Source: Bispira polyomma (Eukaryota). Taken from it: 64,000 nucleotides of DNA. Shown here in pieces: positions 21,020 to 47,853 of this stretch (within the stretch, counting starts at the first letter, position 1; every line of letters starts with the position of its first letter). The stretch lies in contig OZ287750.1 in the NCBI GenBank assembly GCA_965649765.1, positions 52,142,001 to 52,206,000 of the forward strand. The letters run 5' to 3'. The notes under the pieces were generated by a model. That model did not search any database, was not told the origin of the DNA, and saw nothing but the letters and a program-made list of their open reading frames with translations. A program made the position numbers and the translations under genes.

Positions 21020-21035
21020 GTAAGTCAACACCATC

Positions 21036-26782: not shown

Positions 26783-26804
26783 GTAAGTATATAGTGTACT
26801 AGTG

Positions 26805-27822
26805 CTTGTGGGTCTGGGTGTGTGTGTGTGGGTCTCTAAGTGTGTGGGATATGTATGGGTCTATGTGTATGGGTGGGTCTGTGAGTGTGTGGGTCTATGG
26901 GTGCAGGTGTCTGTATGAGTGTGTGTGGGACTGTGAGAGTGTGTAGGTCTGTGTGCGTGAGGGTCTGTGGGTGCAGGTGTCTATGAGTTTGTGGGTCTAG
27001 GTGTGTGTGTGTGTGTGTGTTCATGTGTGTGTGGGTTTGTGTGTATATGGTAGGTAGGTCTGTGAGTGTGTGGGTCTGTGTGTGTGTGTGTTTATGTGTG
27101 TGTGGGTTTGTATGTACATGGTAAGTAGGTCTGTTAGTGTGTCGGTCTGTGTGTGTGAGTGTGTGTCGGTGTAGTTCTGTGGTGTGAGTGTGTGTCGGTG
27201 TAGTTCTGTGGTGTGGGTCTGTGTGGGTCTGGGTCTGTATGAGTGGGTGTGGCTATGTGAATGAGTGTGTCTATGAGTGTGTGTGTCTATGGGTCTGGGT
27301 CTCTGTATGTGTCTGTTAGTGTTTACGTATGTCTGTGTCTGGCTGTGTGTCTGAGTGTACATGTTTGGTCTGTGAATGTCTGTGTTCATGGGTCTGGGTC
27401 TGTATGAGTGTGTGTGTGTCTGTGAGTGTCTGTGGGTCTGTGAGTGTCTGTTGGTCTGGGTCTGTATGAGTATGTGGGGTTGTGAGTGTATAAGTGTGGG
27501 TCTGTGGATGTGTGGGTCTGTATGAGTGGGTTTGCGTCTGTGAGTGTGTGGGTGACTGTGTGGGTCTGGATGAGTGTGTGAGTGTGTGGGTGTCTGTGTG
27601 GGTCTGGGTCTGTATGAGTATGTGGGGCTGTGAGTGTCTGTGGGTCTTGGTCTCTATGATTGGGTCTGGGTCTGTATGAGTGGGTGTAGGTTTGTGAGTG
27701 TGGATGGGTCTGTGAGTGTGTGTGTAGGTCTGGTCTCTATGTGTGTTTGTGTGTGGGTATGTCTGTGTCTGGATGTGTGTGTGGGTCTGTATGAGTGGGT
27801 GTTTATGTGAGTGTCTGTGTAT
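26805..27822. repeat. (TG)-rich low-complexity / complex microsatellite
   Basis: gtgtgtgggtctgtatgagt-like units; source of the spurious His/Thr and Val/Cys ORFs. Confidence 0.9.
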
Positions 27823-27916
27823 GTGTTGTTAATCAGTACATTTCTCTATGGGTCATTGTATCAGATTTATTGTCTCATGACAACCTTTACCATCCTCCAC
27901 ACTTTGTTAATTACAG

Positions 27917-27970
27917 GGAGACAAAGGAGTCAGAGGTCAAACAGGATTGCCTGGACTCATTGGGATAAAG
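27917..27970 (+). CDS. Collagen exon 14 (54 nt) GDKGVRGQTGLPGLIGIK
   Basis: ttacag| ... |gtgagt. Confidence 0.95.
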
Positions 27971-28410
27971 GTGAGTCTGGATTAGCAGAATTAAAGATAA
28001 TAATGATTGAAGCATTTATAGAACACCAAATTAATGAAAACATCCCCTAGGCGCTAATATCCAAAAAAGGATGGTCTAGCAATAATAAGAAGATCAACAG
28101 TGAGTCTTGATAAACAGGTTGTTTGCATTGAGCGGCACAAGCTAGACATATTGCAATGTCAGAAAAAGTACAGTAGAACATCTAGTATCCAAACACGTTG
28201 GAGTGATCATCTGTTCAGATACGAGAATGTTTGTATTTTCACATATAGTTAATTCATCATAATAACAAAACATGTGCTGCCGTGCTGTCAGTAACTCTTG
28301 AGGGATGATTTTGATTGAAGAAACCACATCATGAAAGCTTCTTATGATGCAAGTGATAACATTTGCTGTAATAGGTACCTTGACCTCTATTGACTTCTTG
28401 TTTGTTCCAG

Positions 28411-28473
28411 GGTGATGAAGGTAACGAGGGAGCACGTGGGGAGAGAGGTCCAATCGGTCCTAGAGGGGCTAAT
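28411..28473 (+). CDS. Collagen exon 15 (63 nt) GDEGNEGARGERGPIGPRGAN
   Basis: ttccag| ... |gtaagt. Confidence 0.95.
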
Positions 28474-28862
28474 GTAAGTATTTGACACACGCATACAGGG
28501 ACACACATATACATACACACAGGGAAATACAGGGACACACATACACATACAGGGACCACGTGGGCAGAGATCCAATCTGATATAGGTGGGGCTAACATAA
28601 GTATACAGACACACGCATATAGGGACACACACACACATACACACAGGGACAGACAGGAAGGGACATTCACACATACAGGGTCCAATATGACCTAGGGGGC
28701 CTAATGTAAGTATACAGACACACACATATAGGGAAACACATGTATATACACACAGGGAAATACAGGGACACACACATGGGGAGAGGTGTAGTCTGACCTA
28801 GGGGGGCCTAACATAAGTATACAGACACAGGGACACACAGGCATACATACAGACACATACAT
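28474..28862 (+). repeat. Three degenerate copies of exon 15 3' end + donor + (CA)-rich spacer
   Basis: ccaat..cctagggggcctaa(tg/ca)taagtatacagacac at about 28570, 28682, 28795. Confidence 0.85.
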
Positions 28863-29185
28863 AGCCCTTTGCTTATTGCCTGGAAGTGCAAGGCATTATA
28901 ATATATGACATTTGATCGTTGCTTATTACTACATCGATCATGAAAGTAAACAATGACAGTTGTGAAGATTATTCTGAATGACTTTTTTAGTGAAAGTTTA
29001 TTATTTCAGCTTCCCTAGTATATAACTTTAACAATAGAGTGGATCATGTTTTTGTTACTGTCTAAGTTCAGTACATTTTCATATTTGTTTTTTATAACTG
29101 GACTCTCAGTGCCTTCTTACTTTTGATTTGTTGTGTCATCAAATCCCCTACACAGTGTCTCACTTCAATCTCTGTGTGTTTCCAG

Positions 29186-29257
29186 GGTAATCCAGGTATT
29201 CCAGGACCTCCAGGTGTGATGGGACCAATGGGGCTGAGTGGACCACCAGGACCAGCG
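29186..29257 (+). CDS. Collagen exon 16 (72 nt) GNPGIPGPPGVMGPMGLSGPPGPA
   Basis: ttccag| ... |gtaagt. Confidence 0.95.
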
Positions 29258-29289
29258 GTAAGTATTGTAAAATTACCATGATTCTAGAC

Positions 29290-29690
29290 TGATTACACGT
29301 TCTTCAAATGTCAACCTAATCACACCTCAACTTCAAGAGACTCCTTCAGCTCCCAGTTAAAAAATTTGAATTTAATTCAAAATTGGCCTGGTTACATACA
29401 AAGCTCTTAAATATAGTCAACCAGTATATTGTTAAAGATACGTTCAACTCTTACACATCTCTCAGGAACATATCAGGCGCAGTTGTCCAAATACAAGTGT
29501 CCTTAGTACTTTACCAAGTCTTGTACCTACTATTTACTCCCTCTTTTTGGGGAATTATTTACCTTTTAGTTGATCCTATCTCTTAGTTACTTCAATCTTT
29601 TTTGCATCAGCCTTCCATACATATTATGCCGTCCCTCCTTTGTGGTAACATTTCTTTGGATTGCTGATGATTGTAATAAAAATGTATAGG
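29290..29690 (+). mobile_element. Degraded L2/CR1 LINE 3' end
   Basis: Broken reading ITPQLQ..LQLPVK..IQNW/FKIGLVTYKALK resembles the L2 ORF2 C-terminus. Confidence 0.55.
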
Positions 29691-30073
29691 TAAAAGTGGT
29701 TGGGTGATAAATGAAGTTTTATTTGGGGGTATTGGTGCCAAAGAATAGGATTTGAGTACCATTGTGTCATGAGCGGGTACCCAGCAGACCGGGGTACTTA
29801 ATTGTTGAGATCTCTTGTCAAAATAAATTTGTGGATCCCCAGAGTTTCAGTGGTCTGTCTGTCTCTGTATAACCATTGATCCCCCATGGTTTTAGAAATA
29901 CCGGAAGTGCGCATCGAACACAAAAGCTGTGCGTGCGCAATTCGTAGCCATACTTTATCTGGGAAAACAGATCACATATAAATAGTTCCGTCAGTAGCTA
30001 CAAATATAGTTCACAGTAAGTTTGAAAATATCTTATTTTTTTGCTTTAAAATATACTGTTGTCAATCTTCTAA

Positions 30074-30226
30074 TAGAAATAAAGTACACAGGCTTGTACT
30101 TTATTGGCGAATAAAGAACAGCCTGCCGGCATAATGAACTCGGGCCTATCAGCCCTGGTCCATTATTCCGCCCTAAGTGAGTCCTTTATTTGTCAATAAA
30201 ATGCTCGCTCTTTATCTTTATTTCTA
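30074..30226. repeat. 153-nt imperfect palindrome (hairpin MITE-like)
   Basis: tagaaataaag/ctttatttcta, tttattggcgaataaagaac/gtcctttatttgtcaataaa, ataatgaactcgggc/gccctggtccattat pair symmetrically. Confidence 0.75.
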
Positions 30227-30229
30227 CAG

Positions 30230-30802
30230 GATATTGGTCTGATGATCGGAAGCTACACCAGGTTCAATTCCCGGTACCGACCACTAGGTTCATTTGGTGG
30301 TATAACATCCTTGGGCAAGATGTCAATACCAGTTTGCCTAGTGGCTTGGATGACCACATAAAATGGCAGTCTTCTGTCACTAAGTACTATCTCCAATGGC
30401 AGATTAAAGGTATTTAGGGACGTCGATAAATGGTCATCCTCAAGTAAGCCTCAGCGTCCACAGTGGCTGCCGGGGGCCGCGGTGGCCTAGTGGTTAGCAA
30501 GCATGGCGCTTCACAATCACTGGTCCCTCACCTCTGGGCAGCGTGAGTTCGAATCCCGTCGATGCCTATGTGGGAAAGGCGGTAGTTCCTTACTGTGGGC
30601 CGCTGGTTTCTCTGCAGAACCTTGACCGACTGTATGCAGTGTTTCCCCCAGCGTGTCCAACTACCCGTCCCAATATAACCTACTAAAAGGTACTAGAGTG
30701 GACGTTAAATATCCAAATTCAAATTCCACAGTGGCTGCCCATGAAGAAGCGCATTTGAAATGACCCTATGCTGTATAAGTGTGCTATAATAGATGTCATA
30801 TT
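30230..30802 (+). mobile_element. tRNA-derived SINE family C (host), interrupted by a family A SINE
   Basis: Matches the reverse complement of 52530-52836 on both sides of the 30472-30724 insertion. Confidence 0.8.
30472..30724 (+). mobile_element. tRNA-derived SINE family A, best-preserved copy
   Basis: A-box TGGCCTAGTGG, B-box GTTCGAATCC, (AAATTC)n tail, 15-bp TSD TCCACAGTGGCTGCC (30457-30471 / 30725-30739). Confidence 0.92.
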
Positions 30803-30831
30803 TTAACTGCTGATGTTGTTGTGTATTTCAG

Positions 30832-30858
30832 GGACCCCCAGGACCTGCTGGCCCAGCT
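30832..30858 (+). CDS. Collagen exon 17 (27 nt) GPPGPAGPA
   Basis: tttcag| ... |gtaagt. Confidence 0.92.
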
Positions 30859-31401
30859 GTAAGTACTGATCTGTGGCTGTATACTCTCTATAATAATCAC
30901 GAGCTCTACTCACACTTAGAGCTCAAATAGAAGATGTCACTATCTTAAAGGAAGATACATACATTCTTACTACATGTATTCGAGTTGAGCACTGAAAGCT
31001 CTATTAAAATGAATGGTCACAAGTATGGGTTATGTACATGTACAGGAGTTACATATAGTCTTCATTTAAGTTATTTCTCTGTTTAATCTTTAGTTTCTTT
31101 GAAGAATATGTGTTTCTGAAGACCATCAATACTACTTTGAGGGATTTAAAATATAGAGAAATTGAATCTGGTTGAGTCTGTAGAAATGCTTTAAAAGAAA
31201 TCAAATATAATTCAATCAGTCATTTGGACCACAGATATACACTAACTTCAAGATATTGTTTAATTTTCTGTATGTAATCCCACACACACATACACAAAAA
31301 AATAATTAAGATAAGTTTTGAAAAAAAAATTGCTGCAAGTAAAACGAAAGTTTTCTGAAAGTACTACACACATATACCCTTTTGTTTACTGTTTTGTTTA
31401 G

Positions 31402-31464
31402 GGTGAGATTGGTAATATCAACAATCCATCTGATGGCGGTAACTTTGGACCACACGGACCCCCA
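31402..31464 (+). CDS. Collagen exon 18 (63 nt) GEIGNINNPSDGGNFGPHGPP (interruption)
   Basis: gtttag| ... |gtaagt. Confidence 0.92.
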
Positions 31465-31624
31465 GTAAGTAACGCTAAATCATGTGACAGGAAGTAAACA
31501 TAGACATTAGTCAGAGTGCAGTTGTACTATTATTTCATGTACAAAACGTTCTATATTTAATGTTTCACAAACTGACATGGTGGAAATTTCTGTTAAACTT
31601 AAACATACATAGGTTATCAGGTAG

Positions 31625-31848
31625 TTTTTATCAGGTTCAGCCTGATTTTGTTTTTATTCTAAAAAGTACGCCGCCATTTAAAAGGGTGCTGCCATTTTAG
31701 AAATAATATGTAAAATCTTCATGGCTTAGTTGGAAGCAATCAACCCAGTCCAAACTGAGCTGTGTCAGTTCTACCTGAGTATATAATGGCCACATCAACG
31801 TCAGTGTATTTCACACTGTGCACCTGTGGCTTTTTAAAAAGACCGTTC
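31625..31848 (+). repeat. Dispersed repeat; second direct copy at about 34973-35266
   Basis: tttttatcagg..cagcctgat..ttggaagcaat..ccaaactgag..tttttaaaaagac shared in order. Confidence 0.8.
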
Positions 31849-31944
31849 ATGTTTCCCTTAGCATTTGTAATCTAGCATTTGGATGTTGTGCCTTAGAATC
31901 CGTCAGTACGGAGATTAAGCGCTTTGTATACTGAATAACTCTTA

Positions 31945-32105
31945 GACTAGTGGTAAAACACTCGCCTCCCACCTCTGTAGTCACGTGTATATAGGGAAAG
32001 ATGGCAGTATAGTTGCTGAAGGCTGGTTTCTGATTTCTTCCACCAGTGAACTGCCTGTCGTGATATGACACAAGACGTGTTTAAAGAGATGTTAAACTCA
32101 AACTA
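31945..32105 (+). mobile_element. tRNA-derived SINE family B (internally deleted); related copies at about 8380-8870 and 43665-43810
   Basis: tagtggtaaaacactcgcctcccacctctg ... ttgctgaaggctgg ... ccaccagtgaactgcctg ... gatgttaaac. Confidence 0.7.
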
Positions 32106-32220
32106 TTCGATTAAAGATACAGTCAACCTGTAAATCTTGTATTACTCTTGTGTGTGTGTTCAAAATATGTGTACAATAATGTGAGACAAAGGTGCTGTAC
32201 AGTGATACTCTGCTCAAATG

Positions 32221-32578
32221 ATAGAAGGTACTGAAAATAGAATAGGCATTTGAGTATAATAGAAGGTACTCAAAATAGAATAGGTATTTGAGTATAATAG
32301 AAGGTACTCAAAATAGAATAGGTATTTGAGTATAATAGAAGGTACTCAAAATAGAATAGGTATTATGTATAATAGAAGGTACTCCAAATAGAATAGGTAT
32401 TTGAGTATAATAGAAGGTACTCCAAATAGAATAGGTATTTGAGTATAATAGGTACTCCAAATAGAATAGGCATTTGAGTATAATAGAAGGTACTGAAAAT
32501 TGAATAGGTATTTGAGTATAATAGAAGGTACTCCAAATAGAATAGGTATTTGAGTATAATAGAAGGTACTCAAAATAG
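32221..32578. repeat. 38-bp minisatellite x about 9
   Basis: atagaaggtactcaaaatagaataggtatttgagtata. Confidence 0.92.
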
Positions 32579-32764
32579 ATAAGTTATTGTAATAAAAACA
32601 TCATCCTGCAATAAAGTTTATGAAATCAAATGTACAAATATTAGAAGGTAGAAGGATATGACAGAGGTTCTGAATTACTAAATTTCCAGTGCTAGGTTAG
32701 ATACTGTTGCCTTACATTGCAGATAACTATGGGTTTTACCATGTCCCATCATTTTGTGTTTTAG

Positions 32765-32797
32765 GGTCCAGCAGGAGCTTTGGGACCTCCAGGAATG
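32765..32797 (+). CDS. Collagen exon 19 (33 nt) GPAGALGPPGM
   Basis: ttttag| ... |gtatgt; ends mid-triplet and is completed by the P that opens the next exon. Confidence 0.94.
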
Positions 32798-33519
32798 GTA
32801 TGTACATCTATGTGGTTTAAATGAATATAAATATTCAAGTGTTTTGTAACATAGCCATTAAAACTCAATGTCAAGATAGTGTACTTAATTCACGAGAGTT
32901 TGCTTTAGTCTATATAACCACTGCAGCTTCTAATGACCTTTTGATCAGACCTTATTAAATATTTATTTTTATACAAACATTAACAATGGTAAACTTTAAT
33001 ATTAGACAAAAATAGTGTTAACACAGCTTTTAAAGATATTCTTTTATGGTAACATCACACAAATTTGATACCTTTGTACAAGCATCCATATATATATATA
33101 TATGAATAATGGTAAGATGGAGCGTCTCTTATATTATGGCCATAATAATACTAATAGACCTGGCACAAAATACAATCTCTATAACCACTACTTTAGAAAA
33201 CATGTTTTATTATCAATGACTGTTTTCCAAGATGTTCTTTTACTGTATATAAAGTGGGAAAGCAACACAAAACATCCCTCTTAGATAGTTCCACTTGAGT
33301 ATCTTTTCTAAATTCACCGGTTAAGTGTATTTTATGGGAAAACTAAATTGTACAAAATAACATTAAATTCTTTCCTTTTTTTCAGTGGTGTATTTTGTAT
33401 GTACCTTTGTGTTACATGACTGCTGTCTACTTATCATCTATTTTATCTCTTAGTAATCTTAACAGAGAAAATCATCTCTCCACCTCTTAAGCTTCTTACC
33501 CAAAAAGCTGGCTGCTTTA

Positions 33520-33790
33520 AAAAACATCAAAGTTGCAGCATCTGCTGAAAGGAATAGTCTTCCTACTAGTCTTCACACTGAGACAATGATCACAGGCTTT
33601 AGGAAATAGTTCAAAACACATCTGTATCAACTCGCTTTTCCGCTTAACATTCGTTTGCTGGTCATGACTGAAATTCTGATCATGAACCATTTCTCCTATG
33701 GAACTATTCTTTTGCATACTGATTGGAATGTGCATAACAGAGGATGCCTGGTCATCGATTGTGGCACTATAGAAGTAAAAACATTAATTA
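33520..33790 (+). mobile_element. Degraded L2-like LINE 3' end
   Basis: VAASAERNSLPTSL ... GFRK*FKTHLY resembles the WNSLP...FK..LKT.L terminus. Confidence 0.5.
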
Positions 33791-33823
33791 CCAGTTATAC
33801 AGTATTTATTTGCTGTTTTTCAG

Positions 33824-33970
33824 CCTGGTGTCCGAGGGCCACCTGGTGAATCAGGCCCTTCTGGGGTGCCTGGAAATCCAGGGGTACACGGAAACCAGGG
33901 ATCACCAGGTCCCCCCGGATCCAGGGGGTTAACAGGACAGCCAGGGAAACCAGGGATGCCGGGCTTACCT
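33824..33970 (+). CDS. Collagen exon 20 (147 nt) PGVRGPP...GMPGLP, end of COL2
   Basis: tttcag| ... |gtaagt; P plus 16 triplets. Confidence 0.96.
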
Positions 33971-34530
33971 GTAAGTTGTCTTGAAGTATTTGGAGGGCTG
34001 CTTGTTCTAACAATAGAAATCAGATGGAAATCTTTGTGTGTCAGAATCAATATCATTTGGCTGTTGACTGTTCAATAAGGGTATTAGTCACGCAAACACG
34101 ACTATTTTCTGTTTGAAGATGTGTTCTCTTGGCTACAAGTGCTTATATTTTTAAGGCAGAATATTGGAATAAGGACGGATTTTCAAAAGCAGAATCCTGG
34201 GGGTAAATTTTCAGTACTGTCTCATCCTTAGTTTTTATGATTCAAAAAATATGTCACCCATAAATGTTGTAACCATAACTACTGAACAATGATGTTCAGT
34301 TAAATTCAGTTTGAATTGGTAAGACTTCTAGCTTTATATTACCTAGATTATATATGTTGCTTTGTTGCGCCTTAAAATCTGGTAGTACAAAGATTGAGTG
34401 CCATTACAAAATTGATTAGATTAGATGACGGTTGCATTTGTTAATTAGATTAGATAACGGTTTGAATTGGTAAGACTTCTAACTTTATCTCACTAAGATA
34501 ATATATGTTGCTTTGTTTCTATGGTAATAG

Positions 34531-34585
34531 GGACGTAGCGTACCACTCTCCAAAGTCAGGGATATCTGCCGTGAAATACTCAGAG
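34531..34585 (+). CDS. Collagen exon 21 (55 nt) NC2 helix GRSVPLSKVRDICREILR(E)
   Basis: taatag| ... G|gtaaga; supplies the phase 0 to phase 1 bridge required between exons 20 and 22; amphipathic with one Cys. Confidence 0.9.
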
Positions 34586-35402
34586 GTAAGATCACATATA
34601 CTTCACAAATTATTTATTTATTTATATATCAGACATATTTATATGACTTACAAAACAATTGGAGGAAAATGGAATATATTTATTCAAAATTTATGCGAAA
34701 ATAAGAAGCATTTTATGAATATCTTTTTTGATTCACATAGTTCGTCTAATCATTGTCAAACCTAGAGAAGGAATAAAATACCAAGAAAGTCTAATACATT
34801 CTACAATTAACAAGTCAAAGTGAACATGGTTTCACTTTGACAATAGCTTGACTCACAATGGTCCAATGGCTTGACAAAACTCTAGAATAGATTACCCTCT
34901 TTTGTAAAGGGCCTCTAATAAAACACTTTAATCTATTTATAGCATGTTGAAAACCAATCTCTTCCTCTGTGATTTTTATCAGGCACAGCCTGATGTTGTT
35001 TTTATTCTGAAAAGGGCGCCACTATTAAAATGGCGCCACTATCTTAGAAATAACATGTAATGTCTTCATGGATTGCTTGGAAGCAATTGACCCATCCAAA
35101 CTGAGGGGTATCAGATTTGCCTAAGTACCCTGCCATCCTAGAAATAATATGTAAGGCCTTCATGGATAGCTTGGAAGCAATCGAAACTGAGAGGTGTTTA
35201 TAGTAGCCATATCAACGTTAGTGCTTTTCACATTTTGCGCCTTTGTCTTTTTAAAAAGACAGTTCTTGTTGGGCTGATTATATTTTGTTGTCAATCTTTT
35301 TATGTGTCTGGATTTTGGAGAAAAAAAAAACACTGATTTCAGAATTGTCTGTTAGAAGTTAGAATTGTGTACTTGTTGATTGATGACTTTGTGTACCCAC
35401 AG

Positions 35403-35504
35403 AACAATTAGAGGAGTTAACACGGGATCTCATAGGCCCACCCGGACCCATGGGGGTGGGCAAACCTGGCAAACAAGGTCATCCGGGGATGCAGGGTATT
35501 CCAG
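35403..35504 (+). CDS. Collagen exon 22 (102 nt) (E)QLEELTRDLIGPPGPMGVGKPGKQGHPGMQGIP(G)
   Basis: ccacag| ... G|gtgagt; phase 1/1. Confidence 0.94.
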
Positions 35505-35976
35505 GTGAGTAGGGTGGAGGCATCACTAACTGGTCAATCTGTATGTGACACTAATAGTATGTGTCTTCAAAATCTTCATTTCAGTTTCCCCACCTTTAAA
35601 ATCTCTACATTATATTGTAAAAAATTACTTTTAAAAGCCTTTACTTTTAGATTCAAGACCTTTGTTGTAGGTATTACCAATCTCTGCGTGACATTGACTG
35701 TGTACTTTATAAAGTGTAAGTCTTAAAGCCACGGCGATTAGCCTAGAAATTGATGCATCAGTCGACCATATGGCGTTGAGTCTGGATGTATTATTCCCAA
35801 ATAGGGTCAAATTTTAGTATGCACCCGAACACTCATTGTTGCCCATGAAAAATATCAATAATAGATATAATTGTAACTTTAGGTTCATATTACACTGAAA
35901 TACGAAAAATATAATTAATAGATAAAATTGTAACTTTATGTTTATATTACATTTAAATTTGAAGTTATACTGTGGG

Positions 35977-36231
35977 GGGGTGCGCGGTGGCCTAGTGGTT
36001 AGCAAGCATTGCGTTCACAATCACTGGTCTATAACCTCTGGGTGGCGTGAGTTCGACTCCCATCGATGCCTATGTGGGAAAGGTGGTAGTTTCTTACGGT
36101 GGGCCGCTGGTTTCAGTGCAGAATCTTGATCAACTCTATGCAGTGTTTCCTCCAGCATTTCCAACTACCCGTCCCAATATAACCTAAACAGGTACTAGAG
36201 TGGACGTTAAATATCCCAATTCAAATTCAAA
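35977..36231 (+). mobile_element. tRNA-derived SINE family A
   Basis: Homologous to the 30472 copy; 11-bp TSD TATACTGTGGG (35966-35976 / 36232-36242). Confidence 0.9.
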
Positions 36232-36748
36232 TATACTGTGGGAAAGATCAAACACAGCTGAGTTTAGGTATGTATTAGGACTTAATTTATTTGAGAGTAG
36301 GCGATCATCAAAGCCTTACTTCAGCTTGCGGCTCTGGTAAATCTAATCTGCAGTTAAAAACATGTAGTATTTTGATTATATTTGTAAATACAATGGCAGA
36401 GTAAAAATGTTAAATTTAGTGAAAATACCTGCAAATCTTGTACAAAAACTCAGCCGTACAAATTATAACTTGCATGGTTTCAGTTAATTTGAGTTTTGTA
36501 CATGTTATATAACTTGTACAACTTTGGGCTTGTCAAAACAATAATTTTTCAGTCTATTTTGTGCTCAGTTTTTGTACAACAATCAAAAATCCTAACTTGT
36601 ACTTCACACATATATGAGAAAGAAATTACCATGTAACTGCTCTAGATTTCATGTTACAGAACACATATTTTACTACTTTTCACATGCTAAGTGTACAGTA
36701 CATCTGGTGCAACCTATAAGTCTTGACCCCCTTCTATTTTTGTCTTAG

Positions 36749-36838
36749 GTGACCCTGGACCAGCAGGCTTGCCTGGAGAGCGTGGTCTGATGGGTATTCC
36801 TGGACCCCCGGGCCCACTTGGACCCCAAGGAAGGATAG
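36749..36838 (+). CDS. Collagen exon 23 (90 nt) (G)DPGPAGLPGERGLMGIPGPPGPLGPQGRI(G)
   Basis: tcttag| ... G|gtgagt; phase 1/1. Confidence 0.95.
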
Positions 36839-36859
36839 GTGAGTTGATTGTCTTATCTA

Positions 36860-37170
36860 AATGACAGGTATCCCTGAGATCAGGCAAGGACAGGTAAGTT
36901 TATTGTATCAGTTTTGATGGATATTCTTAATATACCCCTGAATTCCCGGTCCAAAGAAGGATAAGGCAGTAGGCTATTCCTAATGATACGCCTGATAACT
37001 TCAGGCCCTCTGAGACCCCAGGGAATGACAGGCATGTTGGTTGTCATATTGGTATGATGTATTTCCCAACCCCTTAGCCTTACAGGACCCCTGAGAATGA
37101 CAGGTTAGTTTGTTGTATTTGTCTGATGGGCATGCCCAGACCTCACATTTATCTGGTATGCCAGGGAACA
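36860..37170 (+). repeat. Degenerate copies of exon 23 3' half + donor
   Basis: Recurrent tgatgg.tattc..gacccc.g.gaa.gacag|g(t/c)..gt. Confidence 0.7.
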
Positions 37171-37532
37171 AAAGGTTTGCAGTTCAACAGTTCCATTGTT
37201 CCTTGAAGGTTTTTTTATATTCTAATGACTAGTGTTTGTCATCAAAATACTTATGCGGTTCCAAAGTACAATGCTGTATGGTCAAAGATTAAACATAGTT
37301 TTTAACATAAAAAATATGCACAATAGTGATAATCATAATTTAGTCAGTCAATTTGTGACACACAAGAAACAGAAAAAGTTTACGGTGTAACAATGTGATG
37401 CTGTCTGTGGAATGTCTTGTGAATAATTTAGAGAACCTTGTTACTAGACAGTGTAAATAAATCCTGAGCCCTTCCCCTCCCCATCCTTTGCACATGTAAT
37501 TAGACCCTCACACCCAAGCCCTGTGTTTTCAG

Positions 37533-37610
37533 GAGAGCGTGGGGACAAGGGTGAGCGTGGACTGACTGGTTATGGGGACGAAGGGCCGCGTGGTATCCAG
37601 GGACCTCCAG
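37533..37610 (+). CDS. Collagen exon 24 (78 nt) (G)ERGDKGERGLTGYGDEGPRGIQGPP(G)
   Basis: tttcag| ... G|gtataa; phase 1/1; contains RGD and the GY imperfection. Confidence 0.94.
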
Positions 37611-39818
37611 GTATAACTATGACAACTGTTATCCTTAGTAATGCTCTCTGCATGCCTTGACGCGTGTCACCACTCATGAATGTATATAGATATATATTTA
37701 GTGTTATAATGCCTGTTTGTGTTTAGTTTTGTGTTACAGTATGGTTAATATGGTGTGTTGGTTTCAAGACATCTAATCACATGATGGGTTATTTCTTTCT
37801 TGTTATTTATAAATATTTCGCTAATTACTTGTTTATGTTGTGTCCACTCCCCGGGGGTCCTAAATGCCCCTTAATACACGCACAACCTTATACTTAATGT
37901 GTGCTGTCACCCCCCATTGCACAACTTTATATATGTATATACATAGATATTTATGCACTGCTAATTTCCCCGCTGTGATGTGTAGAGAAATATATACAAG
38001 TTTATTTACAAGCTTGAAATATAATTGTTTTTTTAAATGGCATTCTAGAAATTCACTTGCACATGTACATTCAATTTGATAAAAAAATTGTATGAGCGCA
38101 TGTACATGTGCAGTGTCATGCCTGACCTTATTTTGACCTTTGACCTCAGAGTAGGACCTTGACCTGAAAAATCGATACTAGACTATATCCCAGTAACTAT
38201 ACTTTCCGCATGATGAAAACATAATATTGTTAGAGGCAGTCGATGTAAAGCATATCCTATTCGGCTTTGATTTTGACCTATGACGTTGCAGTAATAACCT
38301 TGACCTTTTTCGAGTCTATACGTGTGTACCTACACACAAATCTAAAGTTGGGAACTCAGATGATTTCCCTTACACTTTTTCATTGTTCACCAGTTTCACC
38401 TAAAGCCTATCGGCTTTCGGCATCTCTGATATTATTTTCTGCCATTTTGCCAATCTTTATAATATAGTCCCAGATATATAGTAAAGCTATGATTTGCAAA
38501 CCGACAGGAATTTAATGCACCAGTTTTTATGTTGTGCTTTTATGTTAATTCATCGAGTATGGGTGATTTATTGATGAATTTGATATAAAAAAGTTAGCAT
38601 TGAGTAGATTTGAGAATTTGCCCGATTTCTCTACAACTCACAATGCCCTACTTTATGTATCTCACTAGTGCCTGTATGATGTGTCATTATATCCCCATAT
38701 AGTACACATACAGACATACAGGAGTACTGTATTAACCTTGTTTTTCCCACATATCTGTGTTTGTGAACGTCATCAAAAAGCTTAGCTTGTCTGAGTTTTA
38801 TTTCTTTTCGTATTTGGTTCACTAATTTTGCTCTCCCCGTTTTTTTCAGGGTGATTTCTTTTTGGTGTATGACATTTAACAAAGTCCATTCAGTTTATAT
38901 TTGGGAGTATGTTTGTTGTAATAGTGTAATCACATGATTGGTGTGTCAAAATCATGTGATTAAGTCGCCACATATTGCACGCCAACATTTTAGAGATTAG
39001 AGTAACTTTAGATATCATATCAATAATATTTAAAACTTTCTTGTTGAGAAATAAACTGAGCCACATGTTAAATAGTTTGTCAGATTTCCTGTAATGTATA
39101 GTCATATTTATGTTAAATTTAAATATATAAATCTTAAAGTTACTTGCACTAATGTTAATCATCTTCTAACTATCAGTGATGTTCCCATAATAGTATCAGT
39201 TAAGTTTATCTATATGTTTTATTCAGTCACTCTTCTATATGGTCACATGATTTAGTAAATCAAGCCAGTATAATCATTTGACCATGTCTGCAGGTAACTT
39301 CTCAAAAATCAGTGATTGTTTAGTTATTACTAGTTAAGTTATTGTATGTTTTCATAATTTGGGGATATTTACAATAATAAAACAAATATATATGAGGTCT
39401 TTATTGTCCACAACTATTATAATAATGAATTCTTATGGTACTTCAATTTGGACGATAACTTGTAGGATATGTATTATATGTCACATATGTGATCACACAT
39501 AGTATATCATGGGTACTTTTTGTATTAGCCCTTGAGACAATAATAATAACAACTGGAAAATATTATCCAATATTAATGTAATATCTGCAGCACTTCACAA
39601 ATGTAGTTTTTTTATATGGTTGGGAGGAGGGCATAGCTATATATAGTGTTTTTGTCACTAAGTTATGTGCATCACTTAACTGTAACAGTGACTGCAGTTG
39701 TCATGGTTACCAAATGTTAGCATCCTTGTCTGAAGAGAGTGACTGTCTTTAAAGCTCAGTAAATTCCTGTAAGTTTCTCTCTGGTGTCTATTTTGTCTTG
39801 CTCTGTGGCTTGTGGTGG

Positions 39819-41787
39819 AGTGATACTTGATCCAAAGTCATACCCTAGGAAGTAGAGGTCATACTTTGTTCAAGGCCATACCCTAGGAAGTAGAGGTGAT
39901 ACTTGATCTAAAGGCATACTCTAGGAAGTAGAGGTTATACTTGGTTCAAGGGCTTACCTTAGGAAGTAAAGGTGATACTTGATCCAAAGGCATACTCTAT
40001 GGAGTAGAGGTCATACTTAGTTCAAGGCCATACCCTAGGAAGTAGAGGTGATACTTGATCTGAAGGCATACTCTATGGAGTAGAGGTCATACTTTGTTCA
40101 AGGGCTTACCTTAGGAAGTAGAGGTGATACTTGATCCAAAGGCATACTCTATGGAGTAGAGGTCATACTTTGTTCAAGGGCTTACCTTAGGAAGTAGAGG
40201 TCATACTTGGTTCAAGGGCTTACCTTAGGAAGTAGAGGTGATACTTGATCCAAAGGCATACTCTATGGAGTAGAGGTCATACTTTGTCCAAGGGCTTACC
40301 TTAGGAAGTAGAGGTCATACTTGGTTCAAGGGCATACCTTACGAAGTAGAGGTGATACTTGGTCCAATAGCATACCTTAGGAAGTAGAGGTGATACTTGG
40401 TCCAAGAGCATATCTTAGGAAGTAGAGGTAATACTTGGTCCAAGGGCATACTTTAAGAAGTAGAGGTGATACTTGGTCCAAGAGCATACTTTAGGTGCAG
40501 AGGTGATACTTGTTTAAAGGGCTTACCTTAGGAAGTAGAGGTGATACTTGGTCCAACAGCATACCTTAGGTAATAGAGGTGATACTTGGTCCAAGGGCAT
40601 ACTTTAAGAAGTAGAGGTGATACTTGGTCCAAGAGCATACTTTAGGAAGTAGAGGTGATACTTATTTAAAGGGCTTACCTTAGGAAGTAGAGGTGATACT
40701 TGGTCCAACAGCATACCTTAGGTAATAGAGGTCATACTTAGTCCAAGGGCTTACCTTAGGAAGTAGAGGTCATACTTGGTTCAAGGGCATACCTTAGGAA
40801 GTAGATGTGATACTTGGTCCAAAGGCATACCGTAGGAGGTAGAGATCATACTTGGTTCAAGGGCTTACCTTAGGAAGTAGAGGTGATACTAGTTCAAAGG
40901 GCTTACCTGAGGAAGTAGAGGTGATACTTGGTCCAACAGCATACCTTAAGAAGTAGAGGTGATACTTGGTCCAAGAGCATACTTTAGGAAGTAGAGGTGA
41001 TACTTGGTCCAACAGCATACCTTAGGTAATAGAGGTCATACTTGGTTCAAGGGCTTACCTTAGGAAGTAGAGGTCATACTTGGTCCAAGGGCATACCCTA
41101 GGAAGTAGAGGTGATACTTGGTCCAAGGGCTTACATTAGGTAATGGAGGTGATCCTTGGTCCAAGGGTTTTACCCTAAGAAGTAGGGGTCATACTTGGTC
41201 CAAGGACATACCCTAAGAAGTAGAGGTCATACTTGGTCCAAGGGCATACCCCAGGAAGTAGAGGTCATACTTGATCCAAGTGCTTACCCTAGGAAGTAGA
41301 GGTGATACTTGGTTTAAGGGCATACCCTAGGAAGAAGAGGTGATACTTGGTTCAAGGGAATACCTCAGGAAGTAAAGGTGATAATTGGTCTAAGAGCATA
41401 CCTTAGAGGTGATACTTTGTTTAAGGGCATACCTTAGGATGTAGAGGTCATACTTGATCCAAGGCCTTACTTTAGGAAGTAGAGGTGATAGTTAATCCAA
41501 GAGCATACCTTAGAAAGTAGAGGTGATACTTGGTCCAACAGCATACCTTAGGTAATATAGGTGATACTTGCTCCAAGAGCATACCTTAGGAAGTAGAGGT
41601 GATACTTGGTCTAAGGGCTTACCTTAGGAAGTAGAGGTGATACTTGGTCCAATAGCATACCTTAGGAAGTAGATTTGATACTTGGTCCAAGGACATACCT
41701 TAGGAAGTAGGGGTCATACTTGGTCCAAGAGCATACCTTAGGAAGTAGAAGGGATACCTGCTCCAAGGGCATACCTTAGGAAGTAGA
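39819..41787. repeat. 38-bp minisatellite, about 50 copies, with higher-order alternation
   Basis: Consensus ggaagtagaggtgatacttggtccaagggcatacctta. Confidence 0.95.
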
Positions 41788-42213
41788 CTAAGTTTGTCTG
41801 TGTATTGAAAGGGGTGTTGGAGGGAGAATAGGTATTGCTGTAAGTTTTTATGTAGGAATTTCAGAATATGAAGGGCGTGGGTGAGGGCGAGACAGGTGAA
41901 CAGGTGTTTAGAGTTGTTGGGGTGATAGATTTTCAATACTTGAGGTGAGTACAAGATCATCAAGCACTCACTTTTCTGTGTAAGTTTTGGTTATGGACTG
42001 GTTATAAAGTCTGACCATCTGGGAAGTCTACAGCTGTTGTGTTTATTAGGCAGAGCAGGGAATTTAGGTTAAGGGGGGGGGGGGATCAATAGTTATGATG
42101 GACTTCAGTATAAGCGGAGTAAAGACAAGTGTCCACTCGCCACAGAGCAGGTCCCCCAACCCACACACACACACATGTCTTCAGTCACCTGATTGCATGC
42201 TTATTCTTTGTAG

Positions 42214-42246
42214 GGGATGAGCTAAGCTTTTTGATTGGATCCAGAG
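42214..42246 (+). CDS. Candidate alternative 33-nt exon (G)DELSFLIGSR(G); read-through to 42260 gives ...GSRGDCL*
   Basis: ttattctttgtag| ... GAG|gtgact; phase 1/1, open, restores the Gly codon at both junctions; three TGCATG within about 130 nt. No transcript evidence. Confidence 0.4.
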
Positions 42247-43107
42247 GTGACTGCTTATAGGTTTACTCTGTCTTGGTTTTTCTGCATGCATCTAATGCTT
42301 GTGTTAGTGGGGTAGTGTCTGCATGAGATAGAAAAAAACATGACACCCCCTTTGGTGATTGCGTGTGTCACTAGCCTGTTCTTGTATGATTTTGAATATC
42401 ATCCGGCGATCTCGTTCATAAGTAGATTTGTAACAGATATTGGGGATGAAATGATTAATTTCCTTGACTAATGATACATCAGTTAACCCCTTGCTTTGCT
42501 TGTAGAGCTTAGCTTTTGTATAAACCTGGACTACTTGTCAACAAAGTGGTAATAATAGAAGTTTATTAAACACAGTTGATTGGAAACATCACAAATGTTC
42601 TAGAGGTATGTCCATAAACAAACTAGTATTGTTTACCCACGATCCCTCAAAGAACAACCCTTTGTGGCCTGATTGGTTTAAGGGTTAGTATGATGAGGGT
42701 TTCAACTTGATTTAACCCCTGGTAAAGCCATAATGGACATTGGGGGAATAGCATCCTTTGGCATGATGTAAACACTGTTGCCTTCTTGCGGTGAACAATG
42801 TCACATGTTTGTAGGACTACATCCCTTCTTGGTGAACAAATGTCTTAGAGGATGTATTTCCAATTTATCTGTTAGTTTATAAATATTCAACATAAATTTA
42901 TTAAAGCTGTACTATTGTTGTTTTGCTTATGTTGCTTTGTTGCTACATTTGATGGATAGAATTCACAGCGGCCACATTTTTCTGTGTATTCTATTGTGAG
43001 CACTATCTTTGAAGGTGTTTTCATGTTCAAGTACAGTGGCACATCAACATTGAAATTAAAAATCTAATAATGTTTTTGTCTTATGCACTTGCAATATTAT
43101 ATATTAA

Positions 43108-43357
43108 CCCTTTTGTGACTGAGGAATTAATATCACACTGTACTAACAAAGATTCTGAGGTATCAGGTTGCATATAGCTGGAGTCAAAAAAGAATACAGC
43201 ACAGACAACTGCGGCATTTCATAAGGCCTCATGAAACATCATTTGCTAGACTTAGTACTGATACATCGAATACAATAGGGAATACCGCAGTCAAAGTAAA
43301 CAATAATATGGGGAATATAAGACAGGGTGTCAATTGATGAACATTGGTGCAAAAGGG
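43108..43357. mobile_element. piggyBac-like MITE
   Basis: TTAA|CCCTTTTG ... CAAAAGGG|TTAG; interior homologous to the flanks of the 5621-6163 insertion. Confidence 0.55.
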
Positions 43358-44409
43358 TTAGTATGTCATATCTAAACAAAGTTTCAACTTTTGCTGTATC
43401 TCCTTAAGTTTTGTGAAGTCATTTTGATCCAACCTTAGACTCTGTACCCTTCAGCAAACTCACAGCACTCAAGAAACCCCATGTTAATTGATAATGGTAA
43501 TCCTCCGACATATATACTTTCCCCTTATTTAGGTATGTGTCTCATCTATCCACAATATTGTTGCTATTGCTGGTGTCTACTTTCTTTACTTAACTAATAT
43601 ATCTACCAGTTGCAGTTATTTTCCTCAAGGCCATTAAACTTCTTGAGAGGTACACCAATGTTTAGGGTCCTCAGTGGCGTAGTAGTAACACACTCGCCTC
43701 TCACCTCTGCAGCCGGGGTGTCATTCACAGCCCATACACATGCATGTGGGATGAAGTTGGAAGTAGACTTGCTGAAGGCTGGCTGATTGCAGTACAGAAC
43801 ACCTCCACAAATTACGGTGTGCTGCTTTACTCTACCAATATATACTGCCCTTCGCAATATAATACTGAATTATGGAGAGCATTATTAAATTAAAAATTAA
43901 CCAAAATGAAAAAGTTTACCAGTTTAAATGGATTGAGAGTAATTTTACATCAGCAATTTAAGTATATTGGTTACATATTCAACATAGACCACTTGTAGCA
44001 AGTTTAGATGAGCTGTTGTGTGAAGAGAACCCTTTGAGATATGTACACCAATAGTTTTCTGTGGGTTCAGTTATTTGTATTACAAACTCTAGAACTCGTG
44101 AGTAATAGTTTTTACTACAGCCATGCCTCCATTACCCTGCTGTATTTCACATGTTTACACTAACAATACCATACAACATCAGACTGGGAATGTGGCCTGT
44201 TTACTGAGATCTCTCATTTACACTGTCAACTCATTGCACAAATGGACAGTTATTCAGCTGCTCCTCTTGCTTGCTGTGTATTTTAAAGATAACACTTATC
44301 CACTAACCGTCACCCAGCTACCCACCCACCTAAACATTCCCTAATTTAGGGCCAGAGCTTCATAGAATGTGTTAAATGTACTCGATAAGTCTAGGTTTGT
44401 GGTTGCCTT

Positions 44410-45203
44410 TCTACTAGTATACAGATCTGCACCCTGCGTTTTAGTAGTGGCCGATTCCATTGGTATACAGACCTGTACCCTGGGTTTTAGTAGTTTCCCA
44501 TCCTACTGGTATACAGAACTGCAACTGGTGTTTTAGTAGTTTCCCATTCTACTAGTATACAGATCTGCACTCGGTGTTTTAGTAGTTTCCCATTCTACTA
44601 GTGTGCAGATCTGCACCCGGTGTTTTAGTAGTTTCCCATTCTACTGGTATACAGATCTGCACTCTGTGTTTTAGTAGTTTCCCATTCTACTGGTATACAG
44701 AACTGCAACTAGTGTTTTAGTAGTTTCCCATTCTACTAGTATACAGATCTGCACCCAATGTTTTAGTAGTTTCCCATTCTACTGGTATACAGATCTGCAC
44801 TCTGTGTTTTAGTAGTTTCCCATTCTACTGGTATACAGAACTGCAACTAGTGTTTTAGTAATTTCCCATTCTACTAGTATACAGATCTGCACCCAGTGTT
44901 TTAGTAGTTTCCCATTCTACTGGTATACAGATCTGCACTCTGTGTTTTAGTAGTTTCCCATTCTACTGGTATACAGAACTGCAACTAGTGTTTTAGTAAT
45001 TTCCCATTCTACTAGTATACAGATCTGCACCCAGTGTTTTAGTAGTTTCCCATTCTACTGGTATACAGATCTGCACTCTGTGTTTTAGTAATTTCCCATT
45101 CTACTGGTATACAGATCTGCACCCTGTGTTTTAGTAGTTTCCCATTCTACTAGTGCATAGAATCTGATCTGATCCTGCATTTTAGTAGTCTCCCACTCTA
45201 CTG
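44410..45203. repeat. 46-bp minisatellite x about 17 with a 3-unit (138-bp) higher-order period
   Basis: ttttagtagtttcccattctactggtatacagatctgcactctgtg; period 44531 to 44577. Confidence 0.93.
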
Positions 45204-46974
45204 TACTGGTTTTATTGACTCCATTTCTGGTGCTAATTATTCAAGATAAGATATGCAGATTCCAGTAAATGTAAATTGCTTGTCGAAATGTCAAATCTCT
45301 GATTTAGCCAAGTCAAAGCAGACCACCTCTTGTAAATTAGTACATATTTAACTTTCACTAAATGCCTTGATCAAAATTTCTTTCATGTGAACCTACTCAT
45401 GAAAGACCACCTGTTTTACAAATATCACAGTTTTGGTTGCCCTATTCTCCCTTTATCAGCAGATAAAGTCCTGTGTATCAAGTATATCAACTACCCTTCC
45501 ATCTGCGAAAGCTCAAACAGAACTATCAATTTTTTTCTTCAATAGAAAACTCTGAACCTCTTTGTTTGGACAAGGCTTATTTTCCCTAGCTGCCTTATAA
45601 TCCCCGTGTTAAGATAATTGATAAAATATACTTGGATTGTTGTACATTAGAATACACCATTACTCTATTTGCAGAGATTAAACACCATATGCAGTGAAAT
45701 TTAGATAACAGACTTATTATCTCTGACACACACACCTGTGTGAAACGTCTTTCCTTCTGTCAATCAAGAAATTTACCTAAACGTTTTTTATTTCCATTGG
45801 CCAATCAAGGTCAAATTGTATTTCACTGGATTTTGTCTTGGTAATCAGCTGCAGTCATTGCAGGAACTCCTGTGTATCGTTTACACCCGGCAAGGTTTAC
45901 CATCTGCTTACATCTTCTCTTTCAGTTATTGGATACTCTTTGATGTTTATCTCAGATATCACCACATTTGGGTCAATGAGGCTACTATATATTTGAGTTA
46001 CTCACTAAAAGCTCTATTAAATACACCTATTGGTAACTTATAGTTACTCCTCAGTTAACTCAGTTATTCCCATTAATAAGGAAATTGTTCTATGTGGTAT
46101 TTGAGTTTAAGCAAGACTTTAAGTTTGAGACTTTTGATATTCTAAAAATTTTCTATAATCTAAAACTTAAGCTTGTGCATAAACTCGGTTAGATTTCCTA
46201 CTTAACGGCTAATAATCTAGACCTATCGCCATTTCTTTTAGTGGAGCTTTCGACTGGTTCCCAATGCTATAGTTACGTATAGTTTATTTTTATTGACCTG
46301 GTTACTGATAAATAATAACAAATACACTTTCTTTGGTGTAGATGTTTACTTTTATTTGTTATTAATTAGTGCAATAATGAGTGTTATTCTTGTCAAATTT
46401 GTGTCTCTTACGCGATCAAAAACCAGCACATGAGGATACATGCCAGATTATTGGCAATACATATTTTGAGATTATGGTGAGTGTAAGTTTAAGACTTCGA
46501 TACTCACAACCCCTAGGGTCAAGGTTATGTACAATGTGTTTGAAACCAAGGTTTAAATGTGCTACAGCTTAGGGTTTCCTTTATAAATTGGAGAAATCTG
46601 CTTCATATGCTTTAAGTATCTGCTGCATGCAGTTGGTATTAGTAAAACCTGTATATGTAATTGTATGTATCAGTACAGAATATAACGTTAATCCTCCTCC
46701 TCGCGGCGGCAAGGCAATTACATTCCTGCATGTTGGTGTATGTACGTACATGTTAACACTGTTCTGTGTGTAGTTTTACTAAAAATTTACAGGAATAAGT
46801 CAACTTCCACAGATATCTAAAGTGTGAACTGTCTACCCTGCAGGATTTAATGAATCAATGATTCAGTAATCTTCTTGATTAAGTAGACATCATGGCTAAA
46901 AATATGTATATATCATACAATAATATACATGTATGTTTATCTACATCACAGTTGTAAAATAGTTTGTACTCCGA

Positions 46975-47230
46975 CACCACAGATATGAAATAGTCCATAT
47001 TCTGTAACAGCAAAGATATGAAATAGTCCATACTCTGACATCACAGATATCAAATAGTCCATACTCTGACATCACATAAAAATAGAATAGTCTGTATTAT
47101 GAGATCACAGATTTAAAATAGTTCATACTTTGACATCACAGATATAAAATAGTCCATACTACAACACCACAGCTATAAAATAGTCCATACTCCAACATTA
47201 CAGATATGAAATAGTCTGCAGTCTGACATA
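46975..47230. repeat. About 31-bp minisatellite
   Basis: cacagatatgaaatagtccatactctgacat. Confidence 0.85.
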
Positions 47231-47653
47231 TTTAAAGTATTTCTGTAAGACAATAGATATAAACTATCAGTAAGTCGACAATCATTGTTCGTTGATGTAC
47301 TCTCAAGTTTCTTTTATACAGTGGTTTAGGTAGCATACATTTGATGAAATGCTTCTTACAGTGTTGCACATAGAACTTCAAATAGCCTCAAGCTCTCACA
47401 GATTAAACAGTAATTTAATCATTTAATACAGATTTGCTTTAACTTGTGTTTCTCACTGTCAGTTGATGTGTTTATACTTTTATAACTACGGTATATATCA
47501 CTTGTTTGTCCATATCTAATCCCTTTTTATCTGTATTACCATAGCTATTCTGGGATAAAACACATATATTAAGTTCCCACCAGTCAATCATCTCTATCCA
47601 CCCCCATTTTTTTCGGGCCCTTGGTCACTCTCTATGTTTTTCTATTTTTACAG

Positions 47654-47853
47654 GAAGTCCAGGTAACCCAGGAATGGGACGACAAGGTCGGGCAGGTGAG
47701 CGTGGCCCCAGGGGTAGGTCGGGCCAGCCAGGCCCTCAAGGCCCACCGGGCAGCCCGGGAGCCCCGGGCACCTGTGACTGCGGGCTGAGCGCCCAGACTC
47801 AGTATGTCCAAATGATGGACCAAAGACAGAGGGAGAGTGTCAAGGGGCCTTAA
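47654..47853 (+). CDS. Collagen terminal exon 25 (200 nt coding) (G)[10 protein letters not shown]...[31 protein letters not shown]
   Basis: tttttacag|; phase 1; TAA at 47851-47853. Confidence 0.96.

What the first reader, a model, noticed from the sequence alone, without database searches (positions are those of the whole stretch)
42180..42330. Hidden in-frame micro-exon or RGD-Cys alternative C-terminus in the 10-kb last intron
Seen: ttattctttgtag|GG GAT GAG CTA AGC TTT TTG ATT GGA TCC AGA G|gtgact (42214-42246) is 33 nt, phase 1/1, stop-free and rebuilds Gly at both junctions. It would insert GDELSFLIGSR into COL1. If the donor is ignored the frame continues to GSRGDCL* (TAG 42258-42260), a new C-terminus with a non-helical RGD and a Cys. 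TGCATG lies at 42194, 42283 and 42320. Established: TGCATG is the Rbfox element, and UGC near the 3' splice site marks Srrm3/4-type microexons. Inference: a tissue-regulated switch that kinks COL1 or swaps NC1 for an integrin-type tail.
Basis: partly seen in the sequence, partly recalled or inferred. Interest (0 to 1): 0.7.

Follow-up and report, generated by a model that had tools for sequence, protein, structure and literature searches.

The report
Hidden hinge exon in invertebrate collagen
A 33-base stretch inside the last intron of an invertebrate collagen gene has splice sites, an open frame and three Rbfox-type motifs, so it is likely an optional exon that would add a short break to the collagen helix in some tissues, but no RNA data were available to confirm it.

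Summary
It lies in the 10,043-nt last intron of a FACIT-like (collagen IX/XXI/XXII-type) invertebrate gene. It is more than chance usually gives. Of 45 exon-like segments in this gene's introns, it alone has both end triplets (GDE, GSR) from the gene's own repertoire, and it alone has three TGCATG nearby. The two features co-occurred in 0 of 2000 simulated introns, but they were chosen after the fact. No RNA run, genome or close relative was available, and none of 153 homologue C-termini has such an insert (only one lophotrochozoan species among them). Best reading (0.55): a normally skipped cassette exon, likely Rbfox-activated, that adds a third break to COL1 and keeps NC1. The RGD-Cys tail is unlikely (0.05): RGD is just the donor G|GTGAC read through, there is no AATAAA for 5.4 kb, and the Cys trimer motif would be lost. 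The Srrm3/4 signature is only partly met. Splicing that alters collagen breaks is known (let-2, COL13A1, COL12A1), so this would be a new variant of a known kind, unproven.

The parts
37533..37610 (+). Upstream COL1 exon (GERGDK...GIQGPP, holds the first GXG imperfection), phase-1 donor GTATAA
   Evidence: lowest donor of 23 by the gene's own matrix (1.3), but not by U1 duplex energy (-7.2)
37649..37654 (+). TGCATG 39 nt after the upstream donor
   Evidence: the only one of 23 real donors with TGCATG within 100 nt downstream
42189..42193 (+). Branch-point-like CTGAT at -25 from the candidate exon (consensus recalled)
42194..42199 (+). TGCATG (Rbfox motif; two TGC at -20 and -16) just upstream of the pyrimidine tract
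42199..42222 (+). Predicted 10-bp hairpin pairing the pyrimidine tract with the AG's G and the first 9 exon bases (-10.1 kcal/mol)
42214..42246 (+). Candidate 33-nt cassette exon, phase 1/1, encoding GDE-LSFLI-GSR
42247..42260 (+). Donor GTGACT; if read through, GDCL and stop TAG 42258-42260
42283..42288 (+). TGCATG 37 nt downstream of the candidate donor
42320..42325 (+). TGCATG 74 nt downstream of the candidate donor
47654..47853 (+). Last coding exon: end of COL1 (second GXG imperfection), GTCDC Cys motif, NC1 ending KGP*
4398..47853 (+). 3' part of the FACIT-like collagen gene, 24 coding exons, N-terminal part outside the window

Best explanation
The 33-nt segment 42214-42246 has splice sites and an open phase-1/1 frame, and is likely a normally skipped cassette exon that Rbfox likely switches on in some tissues, which would insert GDE-LSFLI-GSR into COL1 as a predicted hinge while keeping the C-terminal cysteines and NC1. 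Shown: splice sites, frame, motifs, single-copy DNA, FACIT identity of the gene. Inferred steps: (1) default skipping, because the donor is weak and the acceptor can fold into a 10-bp hairpin; (2) Rbfox bound at +37 and +74 helps the weak donor, and Rbfox bound at -20 may open the hairpin; (3) inclusion puts 7 residues between two glycines, between the two conserved GXG imperfections, splitting a 6-triplet stretch into 5 + 3 triplets and so loosening the helix locally; (4) this tunes flexibility or partner binding of COL1, the part of FACITs reported to contact fibrils.
For: With thresholds set at the gene's weakest real splice sites, 45 exon-like segments occur in its introns: 7 rebuild Gly at both junctions, 1 (this one) has both end triplets among the 86 used by the gene, and only this one has 3 TGCATG within 100 nt; 0 of 34 minus-strand decoys reach even the in-register level. 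In 2000 simulated 10-kb introns, 6 held such a triplet fit, 1 held any candidate with 3 TGCATG, and 0 held both (with candidate-level thresholds agrees, 0 of 300). GDE and GSR each occur 3 times among 173 triplets of this gene. Motifs within 200 nt downstream mark Rbfox2-enhanced exons (PMC3967051). Hairpin: 2 of 1000 shuffles of the 25-mer and 14 of 800 intronic AG windows are as stable; freeing the -20 motif raises predicted acceptor accessibility from 0.39 to 0.68. Host intron is 2.6 times the next longest. Aphid orthologues carry a 7-residue break in COL1, and annotated Tubulanus and ant isoforms vary around NC2/COL1, so the family tolerates both.
Against: No junction read or transcript was seen. 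None of 153 homologue C-termini has a net insert above 6 residues near this junction, and 148 of 153 align better to the skipped form; the FACIT ends shown in the PMC10381214 supplement hits also lack one. The donor is weaker than 22 of 23 real donors. 39 of 594 comparable hexamers form as tight a triple. All features were picked after seeing the site, and Markov simulations understate motif clustering. The -20 motif sits where Rbfox is weakly linked to repression. The 151-nt region folds no better than shuffles (z -0.64), one real acceptor window is more stable than the candidate's, and its accessibility (0.39) is inside the real range 0.23-0.72. The +37 motif is predicted to be mostly paired (0.12 unpaired). 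A better-scoring splice pair without collagen fit exists at 44071-44097, so such scores alone arise by chance.
Confidence: 0.55

Rival explanations
1. Chance pseudo-exon: ordinary intron sequence that happens to combine an AG, a GT, an open 33-nt frame and three TGCATG; never spliced at a meaningful level.
For: Exon-like pairs are common (about 10.6 per simulated 10 kb, 1.5 with Gly at both junctions). Weak donor. Hexamer control 39 of 594. No homologue carries the insert. The scan reads very many windows, so rare coincidences will be reported.
Against: Two largely independent signals, coding fit and motif cluster, fall on the same 150 nt: 0 of 2000 simulations and 1 of 45 real candidates. The cluster is not part of a repeat.
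Confidence: 0.3
2. A real cassette exon, but driven mainly by the neuronal Srrm2/3/4 eMIC factor through the UGCs upstream of the acceptor, so a neuron-only microexon.
For: Two TGC lie between the branch-like site and the AG, seen at 27 of 2489 intronic AG and 0 of 24 real acceptors. 33 nt is close to the 31-nt median of fly eMIC exons, which also have weak donors (10.1101/2021.02.24.432780).
Against: The AG-exclusion zone is 27 nt, ordinary for this gene (12-68). No UCUC tract, no CUAAY branch point, and long flanking introns, all unlike fly eMIC exons. The UGCs precede the pyrimidine tract, whereas the tested window lies between tract and AG (10.1101/2024.09.17.613571 section 10). Both TGC are explained by the TGCATGC motif itself.
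Confidence: 0.08
3. Alternative last exon: the acceptor is used, the donor is ignored, and the mRNA ends in the intron, giving a chain that stops at GSRGDCL with a free RGD and one Cys in place of NC1.
For: The frame does read GSRGDCL*. ATTAAA occurs at 42565, 42900, 43055, 43633 and 43884. 3'-end NC1 variants exist in collagen XII (PMC10017729), annotated ant isoforms have other C-termini, and NC2 can drive trimer assembly in collagen IX (PMC12562938).
Against: RGD is forced by Arg + G|GTGAC, so it is not independent evidence. No AATAAA in 5,392 nt after the stop, against 33 in 33,073 nt of upstream gene body. The GXC..C site said to be required for trimerization (PMC10381214) would be lost. 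0 of 153 homologues have RGD after the Cys motif. Two motifs downstream of the GT fit donor activation better than a 3' UTR (inference).
Confidence: 0.05

Closest known systems
C. elegans let-2 (collagen alpha2(IV)) exons 9/10 (PMC2119826, abstract)
   Same: Regulated splicing changes a short Gly-X-Y interruption of a non-fibrillar collagen in an invertebrate.
   Different: let-2 swaps two mutually exclusive exons in collagen IV; here a single cassette would add a new break in FACIT COL1. A second paralogous exon was tested and not supported.
MACIT collagens COL13A1 and C. elegans col-99 (PMC4678570, passages)
   Same: Cassette exons that encode collagenous, non-collagenous or mixed segments while the conserved C-terminal peptide is kept.
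   Different: Transmembrane family; the exons there are shown by cDNA; no regulator was named in the passages I saw.
COL12A1 NC1 splice variants (PMC10017729, passages)
   Same: Alternative 3' splicing in a FACIT gene.
   Different: The variants are described as NC1 variants; the candidate lies inside COL1, upstream of the Cys motif.
Rbfox-enhanced cassette exons (PMC3967051, passages)
   Same: UGCAUG within 200 nt downstream of a short exon.
   Different: Binding, conservation and dependence on Rbfox are untested here; one motif lies upstream.
Arthropod, nemertean and echinoderm 'collagen IX-like' FACITs (P0003 Ixodes, P0128 Tubulanus; PMC10381214)
   Same: Colinear NC2, COL1 with two GXG imperfections, Cys motif and short NC1; the host gene is a member.
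   Different: Cys motif is CxC here, mostly CxxC in the invertebrate hits; none of the fetched sequences has the insert.

Membership tests
FACIT collagen (host gene) | Several short triple helices separated by non-collagenous stretches | tested here: met
   definition from PMC10381214
FACIT collagen (host gene) | Cys motif at the COL1/NC1 junction (GXCXXXXC in vertebrates, GXCXXC in echinoderms) | tested here: met
   GTCDC at the aligned position; spacing is CxC, one shorter, as in P0094
FACIT collagen (host gene) | COL1 with two GXG imperfections at conserved spacing (feature recalled, checked on hits) | tested here: met
   colinear with P0003 and P0128, no gap
FACIT collagen (host gene) | N-terminal thrombospondin (TSPN) domain | not testable with these tools
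   5' part lies outside the window; no genome held
Cassette exon | Usable acceptor and donor, frame-preserving, stop-free | tested here: met
   (donor weak)
Cassette exon | Seen spliced into mRNA | not testable with these tools
   no RNA holder listed; the three runs laid cover the intron in one piece like DNA
Cassette exon | Conserved above intron background or present in orthologous proteins | tested here: inconclusive
   0 of 153 homologues with the insert, but all distant and one lophotrochozoan species only; no orthologous DNA found
Rbfox-enhanced exon | UGCAUG within about 200 nt downstream | tested here: met
   +37 and +74
Rbfox-enhanced exon | Rbfox binding and loss of inclusion on knock-down | not testable with these tools
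   needs CLIP, minigene or RNAi
Srrm3/4 (eMIC) microexon | UGC between branch point and AG | tested here: met
Srrm3/4 (eMIC) microexon | Long AG-exclusion zone, UCUC-rich tract, strong CUAAY branch point | tested here: not met
   AGEZ 27 nt, no UCUC, CTGAT only
Srrm3/4 (eMIC) microexon | Very short length (fly median 31 nt) | tested here: met
   33 nt
Alternative last exon with RGD tail | Polyadenylation signal after the stop | tested here: inconclusive
   AATAAA absent over 5,392 nt; ATTAAA present, first at 42565
Alternative last exon with RGD tail | RGD as a conserved or independent feature | tested here: not met
   arises from the donor itself; 0 of 153 homologues

The most novel reading that the evidence does not exclude
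An Rbfox-operated RNA switch in an invertebrate FACIT collagen: the acceptor is locked in a hairpin, Rbfox binding at -20 opens it and binding at +37/+74 rescues the weak donor, so nerve or muscle cells secrete a collagen with a third, hydrophobic hinge in the otherwise length-conserved COL1 domain, tuning matrix mechanics by tissue.
Probability: 0.2. Interest if true: 0.6.

Novelty: new variant of a known kind. Interest (0 to 1): 0.38.

Why it matters
The stretch between the two COL1 imperfections is nearly fixed in length from arthropods to vertebrates in the sequences fetched. A regulated 11-residue insert there would be a natural experiment on what COL1 tolerates, and would link a neuromuscular splicing factor to matrix mechanics in an invertebrate FACIT, a group little studied. 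My searches found no paper on it, but the library lacks most subscription journals. It remains one unproven exon in one gene, and splicing of collagen interruptions is already known.

Tried and rejected
No whole genome held. RNA search: no RNA holder listed; three coded runs of one study. Laid on 41790-44400 they gave one contig each with 0 differences, so no polymorphism test and no exon joints; the flanking exons were not in the laid stretch. Homologue searches with the NC1 tail found nothing or one irrelevant low-complexity hit. The last exon found 6 distant collagens. The Ixodes C-terminus found 3736 hits, of which 120 were listed and used; 20 of these clusters were opened. No mollusc or annelid name appeared among the listed hits. 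Metagenome scan: 5 loci, all generic collagens or bacterial repeats. ESM Atlas: generic chordate collagen clusters, recognition score low. Alignment A1 stacked the exon fragments and was not used. A second acceptor at 42506 with a similar start (ELSF) suggested a duplicated, mutually exclusive exon: rejected, 284 of 1000 shuffles and 109 of 246 native controls scored as well. No Rfam family in the intron and no notable repeat on the exon. PDB search of the NC2 exon was uninformative (out of frame, redone). Earlier scan notes: nothing on this locus; three unrelated notes. Paper searches with no hit. No structure was predicted, because the spliced forms are not contiguous window sequence. bioRxiv supplements (eMIC exon tables) could not be seen; they would not cover this species but bear on the eMIC feature ranges.

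Full report
Host gene. The + strand carries 24 coding exons from 4398 to 47853 that join into one open frame of 613 codons. The 3' end has an NC2 segment, a COL1 with two GXG imperfections, a GTCDC motif and a short NC1 ending KGP. It aligns without gaps to tick (P0003) and nemertean (P0128) collagen IX-like proteins across COL1 and is related to vertebrate collagens IX, XXI and XXII. FACITs are defined by interrupted helices and a C-terminal Cys site needed for trimerization (PMC10381214, passages). The animal is an invertebrate; a lophotrochozoan is my guess from recalled repeat types and was not tested.

Observation. The intron is 10,043 nt, 2.6 times the next longest. Three public runs give 41790-44400 in one contig with no differing letter, and the exon's flanks show no repeat-derived depth except small bumps over 42054-42229. 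These runs behave like DNA and may be the window's source, so they only exclude an assembly slip or a dispersed repeat.

Is it more than chance? The acceptor lies inside the range of the gene's own acceptors; the donor GTGACT is weak, below 22 of 23 real donors by a gene-trained matrix and matched by 175 of 3014 intronic GT by U1 pairing energy. Splice sites alone prove little: with thresholds at the gene's weakest real sites, simulated 10-kb introns hold about 10.6 frame-preserving candidates. Two further signals single this one out. First, coding fit: the peptide is GDE-LSFLI-GSR, with in-register end triplets that each occur 3 times in this gene; 1 of 45 real intronic candidates and 6 of 2000 simulated introns reach this level. 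Second, three TGCATG within 126 nt: P 0.009-0.019 by random placement, 39 of 594 comparable hexamers after masking repeats, 1 of 2000 simulated introns next to any candidate. Both together: 0 of 2000. These features were chosen after seeing the site and the scan covers many windows, so I take this as odds of roughly 2 to 1 for a real exon, not proof.

Homologues. Of 172 fetched proteins, 153 have the C-terminal Cys motif and 19 were dropped for lacking it. None of the 153 has a net insert above 6 residues near the junction, and 148 align better to the skipped form (the middle of that output was cut, the totals were shown). The set is redundant and distant, with one named lophotrochozoan species (4 Tubulanus isoforms), so this shows the skipped form is the norm but cannot exclude a lineage-specific cassette. 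The human, hemichordate and echinoderm FACIT ends visible in the PMC10381214 supplement hits also lack an insert (only the displayed ends were seen). Aphid orthologues have a 7-residue break in place of the first imperfection, so COL1 can carry a break of this size. Annotated Tubulanus isoforms differ by an 11- and a 28-residue segment before NC2, and ants have alternative versions of the NC2/COL1 segment; these are database predictions that I did not verify.

Mechanism. Two motifs lie 37 and 74 nt after the weak donor, where UGCAUG is enriched at Rbfox2-enhanced exons in mouse; upstream motifs were weakly linked to repression (PMC3967051, passages). The third motif at -20 overlaps by one base a predicted 10-bp stem (42199-42222) that pairs the pyrimidine tract with the exon start. 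The stem beats 998 of 1000 shuffles of its 25-mer, and holding the motif open raises predicted acceptor accessibility from 0.39 to 0.68. Against this, the whole 151-nt region has z -0.64, real acceptors of this gene are as occluded (0.23-0.72), and the +37 motif is predicted mostly paired. I infer default skipping and Rbfox-dependent inclusion, with the hairpin step the least secure. Inclusion would place 7 residues between two glycines, between the conserved imperfections, cutting a 6-triplet run into 5 + 3; a local hinge is an inference from general collagen knowledge.

Srrm3/4 reading. Fly eMIC exons have a median of 31 nt, weak donors, long AG-exclusion zones, UCUC tracts, CUAAY branch points and short flanking introns (10.1101/2021.02.24.432780, passages). 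In human microexons UGC lies between branch point and AG and was tested between tract and AG (10.1101/2024.09.17.613571, passages and section 10). The candidate meets length, weak donor and UGC, and fails the rest.

RGD-Cys tail. The RGD is Arg plus the donor's G|GTGAC, so it adds no evidence. No AATAAA occurs in the 5,392 nt after the stop, against about one per kb upstream, although ATTAAA does. The chain would lose the end of COL1 and the Cys site. NC2 can select chains in collagen IX (PMC12562938, passages) and collagen XII has 3' NC1 variants (PMC10017729, passages), so it is not impossible. No homologue has RGD in NC1 (0 of 153).

Known context. Splicing that changes a collagen interruption is established for C. 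elegans let-2 (PMC2119826, abstract), and mixed cassette exons for MACITs (PMC4678570, passages). A 2012 review lists FACITs among vertebrate specialities (PMC3308698, one passage), while echinoderm members are described in PMC10381214. Searches found no paper on such an exon in an invertebrate FACIT; for papers merely listed I saw only listings.

Verdict. Observation confirmed; cassette exon 0.55 (Rbfox-led) plus 0.08 (eMIC-led); chance 0.30; RGD tail 0.05. New variant of a known kind if real; interest 0.38 until RNA is seen.

Noticed in passing
window 42460-42552: A second acceptor at 42506 with branch-like TTAAC at -23 and two TGC; in phase 1 it reads ELSFCINLDYLSTKW*, with ATTAAA at 42565. 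Its likeness to the candidate's start is not significant.
   Followed up: partly
window 37611-37660: The upstream donor GTATAA is non-consensus and is followed by TGCATG at 37649; read-through gives GITMTTVILSNALCMP*.
   Followed up: partly
window 44071-44097: Best-scoring phase-1 splice pair in the last intron (27 nt, GTGAGT donor) but no collagen fit and no TGCATG; probably a decoy.
   Followed up: partly
window 36301-36336: Weak 36-nt phase-1 candidate (GDHQSLTSACGS) in the intron before exon 36749, TGCATG 135 nt downstream.
   Followed up: partly
window 48556-48819: Three more TGCATG within about 260 nt, 0.7-1.0 kb downstream of the stop codon; in the 3' UTR only if the AATAAA at 48195 is read through.
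   Followed up: no
window 7075-7081 and 9504: One GC-AG intron (donor GCAAGT after 7075) and one acceptor ending AAG (9504) in this gene.
   Followed up: no
window 39820-41787, 44409-45151, 43660-43800: 38-nt x 52 and 46-nt x 16 minisatellites and a high-copy, tRNA-like short element (SINE-like, label recalled) flank the candidate.
   Followed up: no
window 41790-44400: No heterozygous letter in 2.6 kb across three runs of at most two samples; contigs drop rare variants, so this is only a hint of low diversity.
   Followed up: no
P0134/P0011/P0130, P0139/P0013, P0141/P0138/P0140: Ant orthologues are annotated with two alternative versions of the NC2/COL1 segment (35 or 34 residues) and isoforms lacking it, which looks like mutually exclusive exons in the FACIT trimerization region.
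   Followed up: no
P0128 and isoforms: The Tubulanus orthologue has an NC1 extended by about 600 residues in all four annotated isoforms.
   Followed up: no
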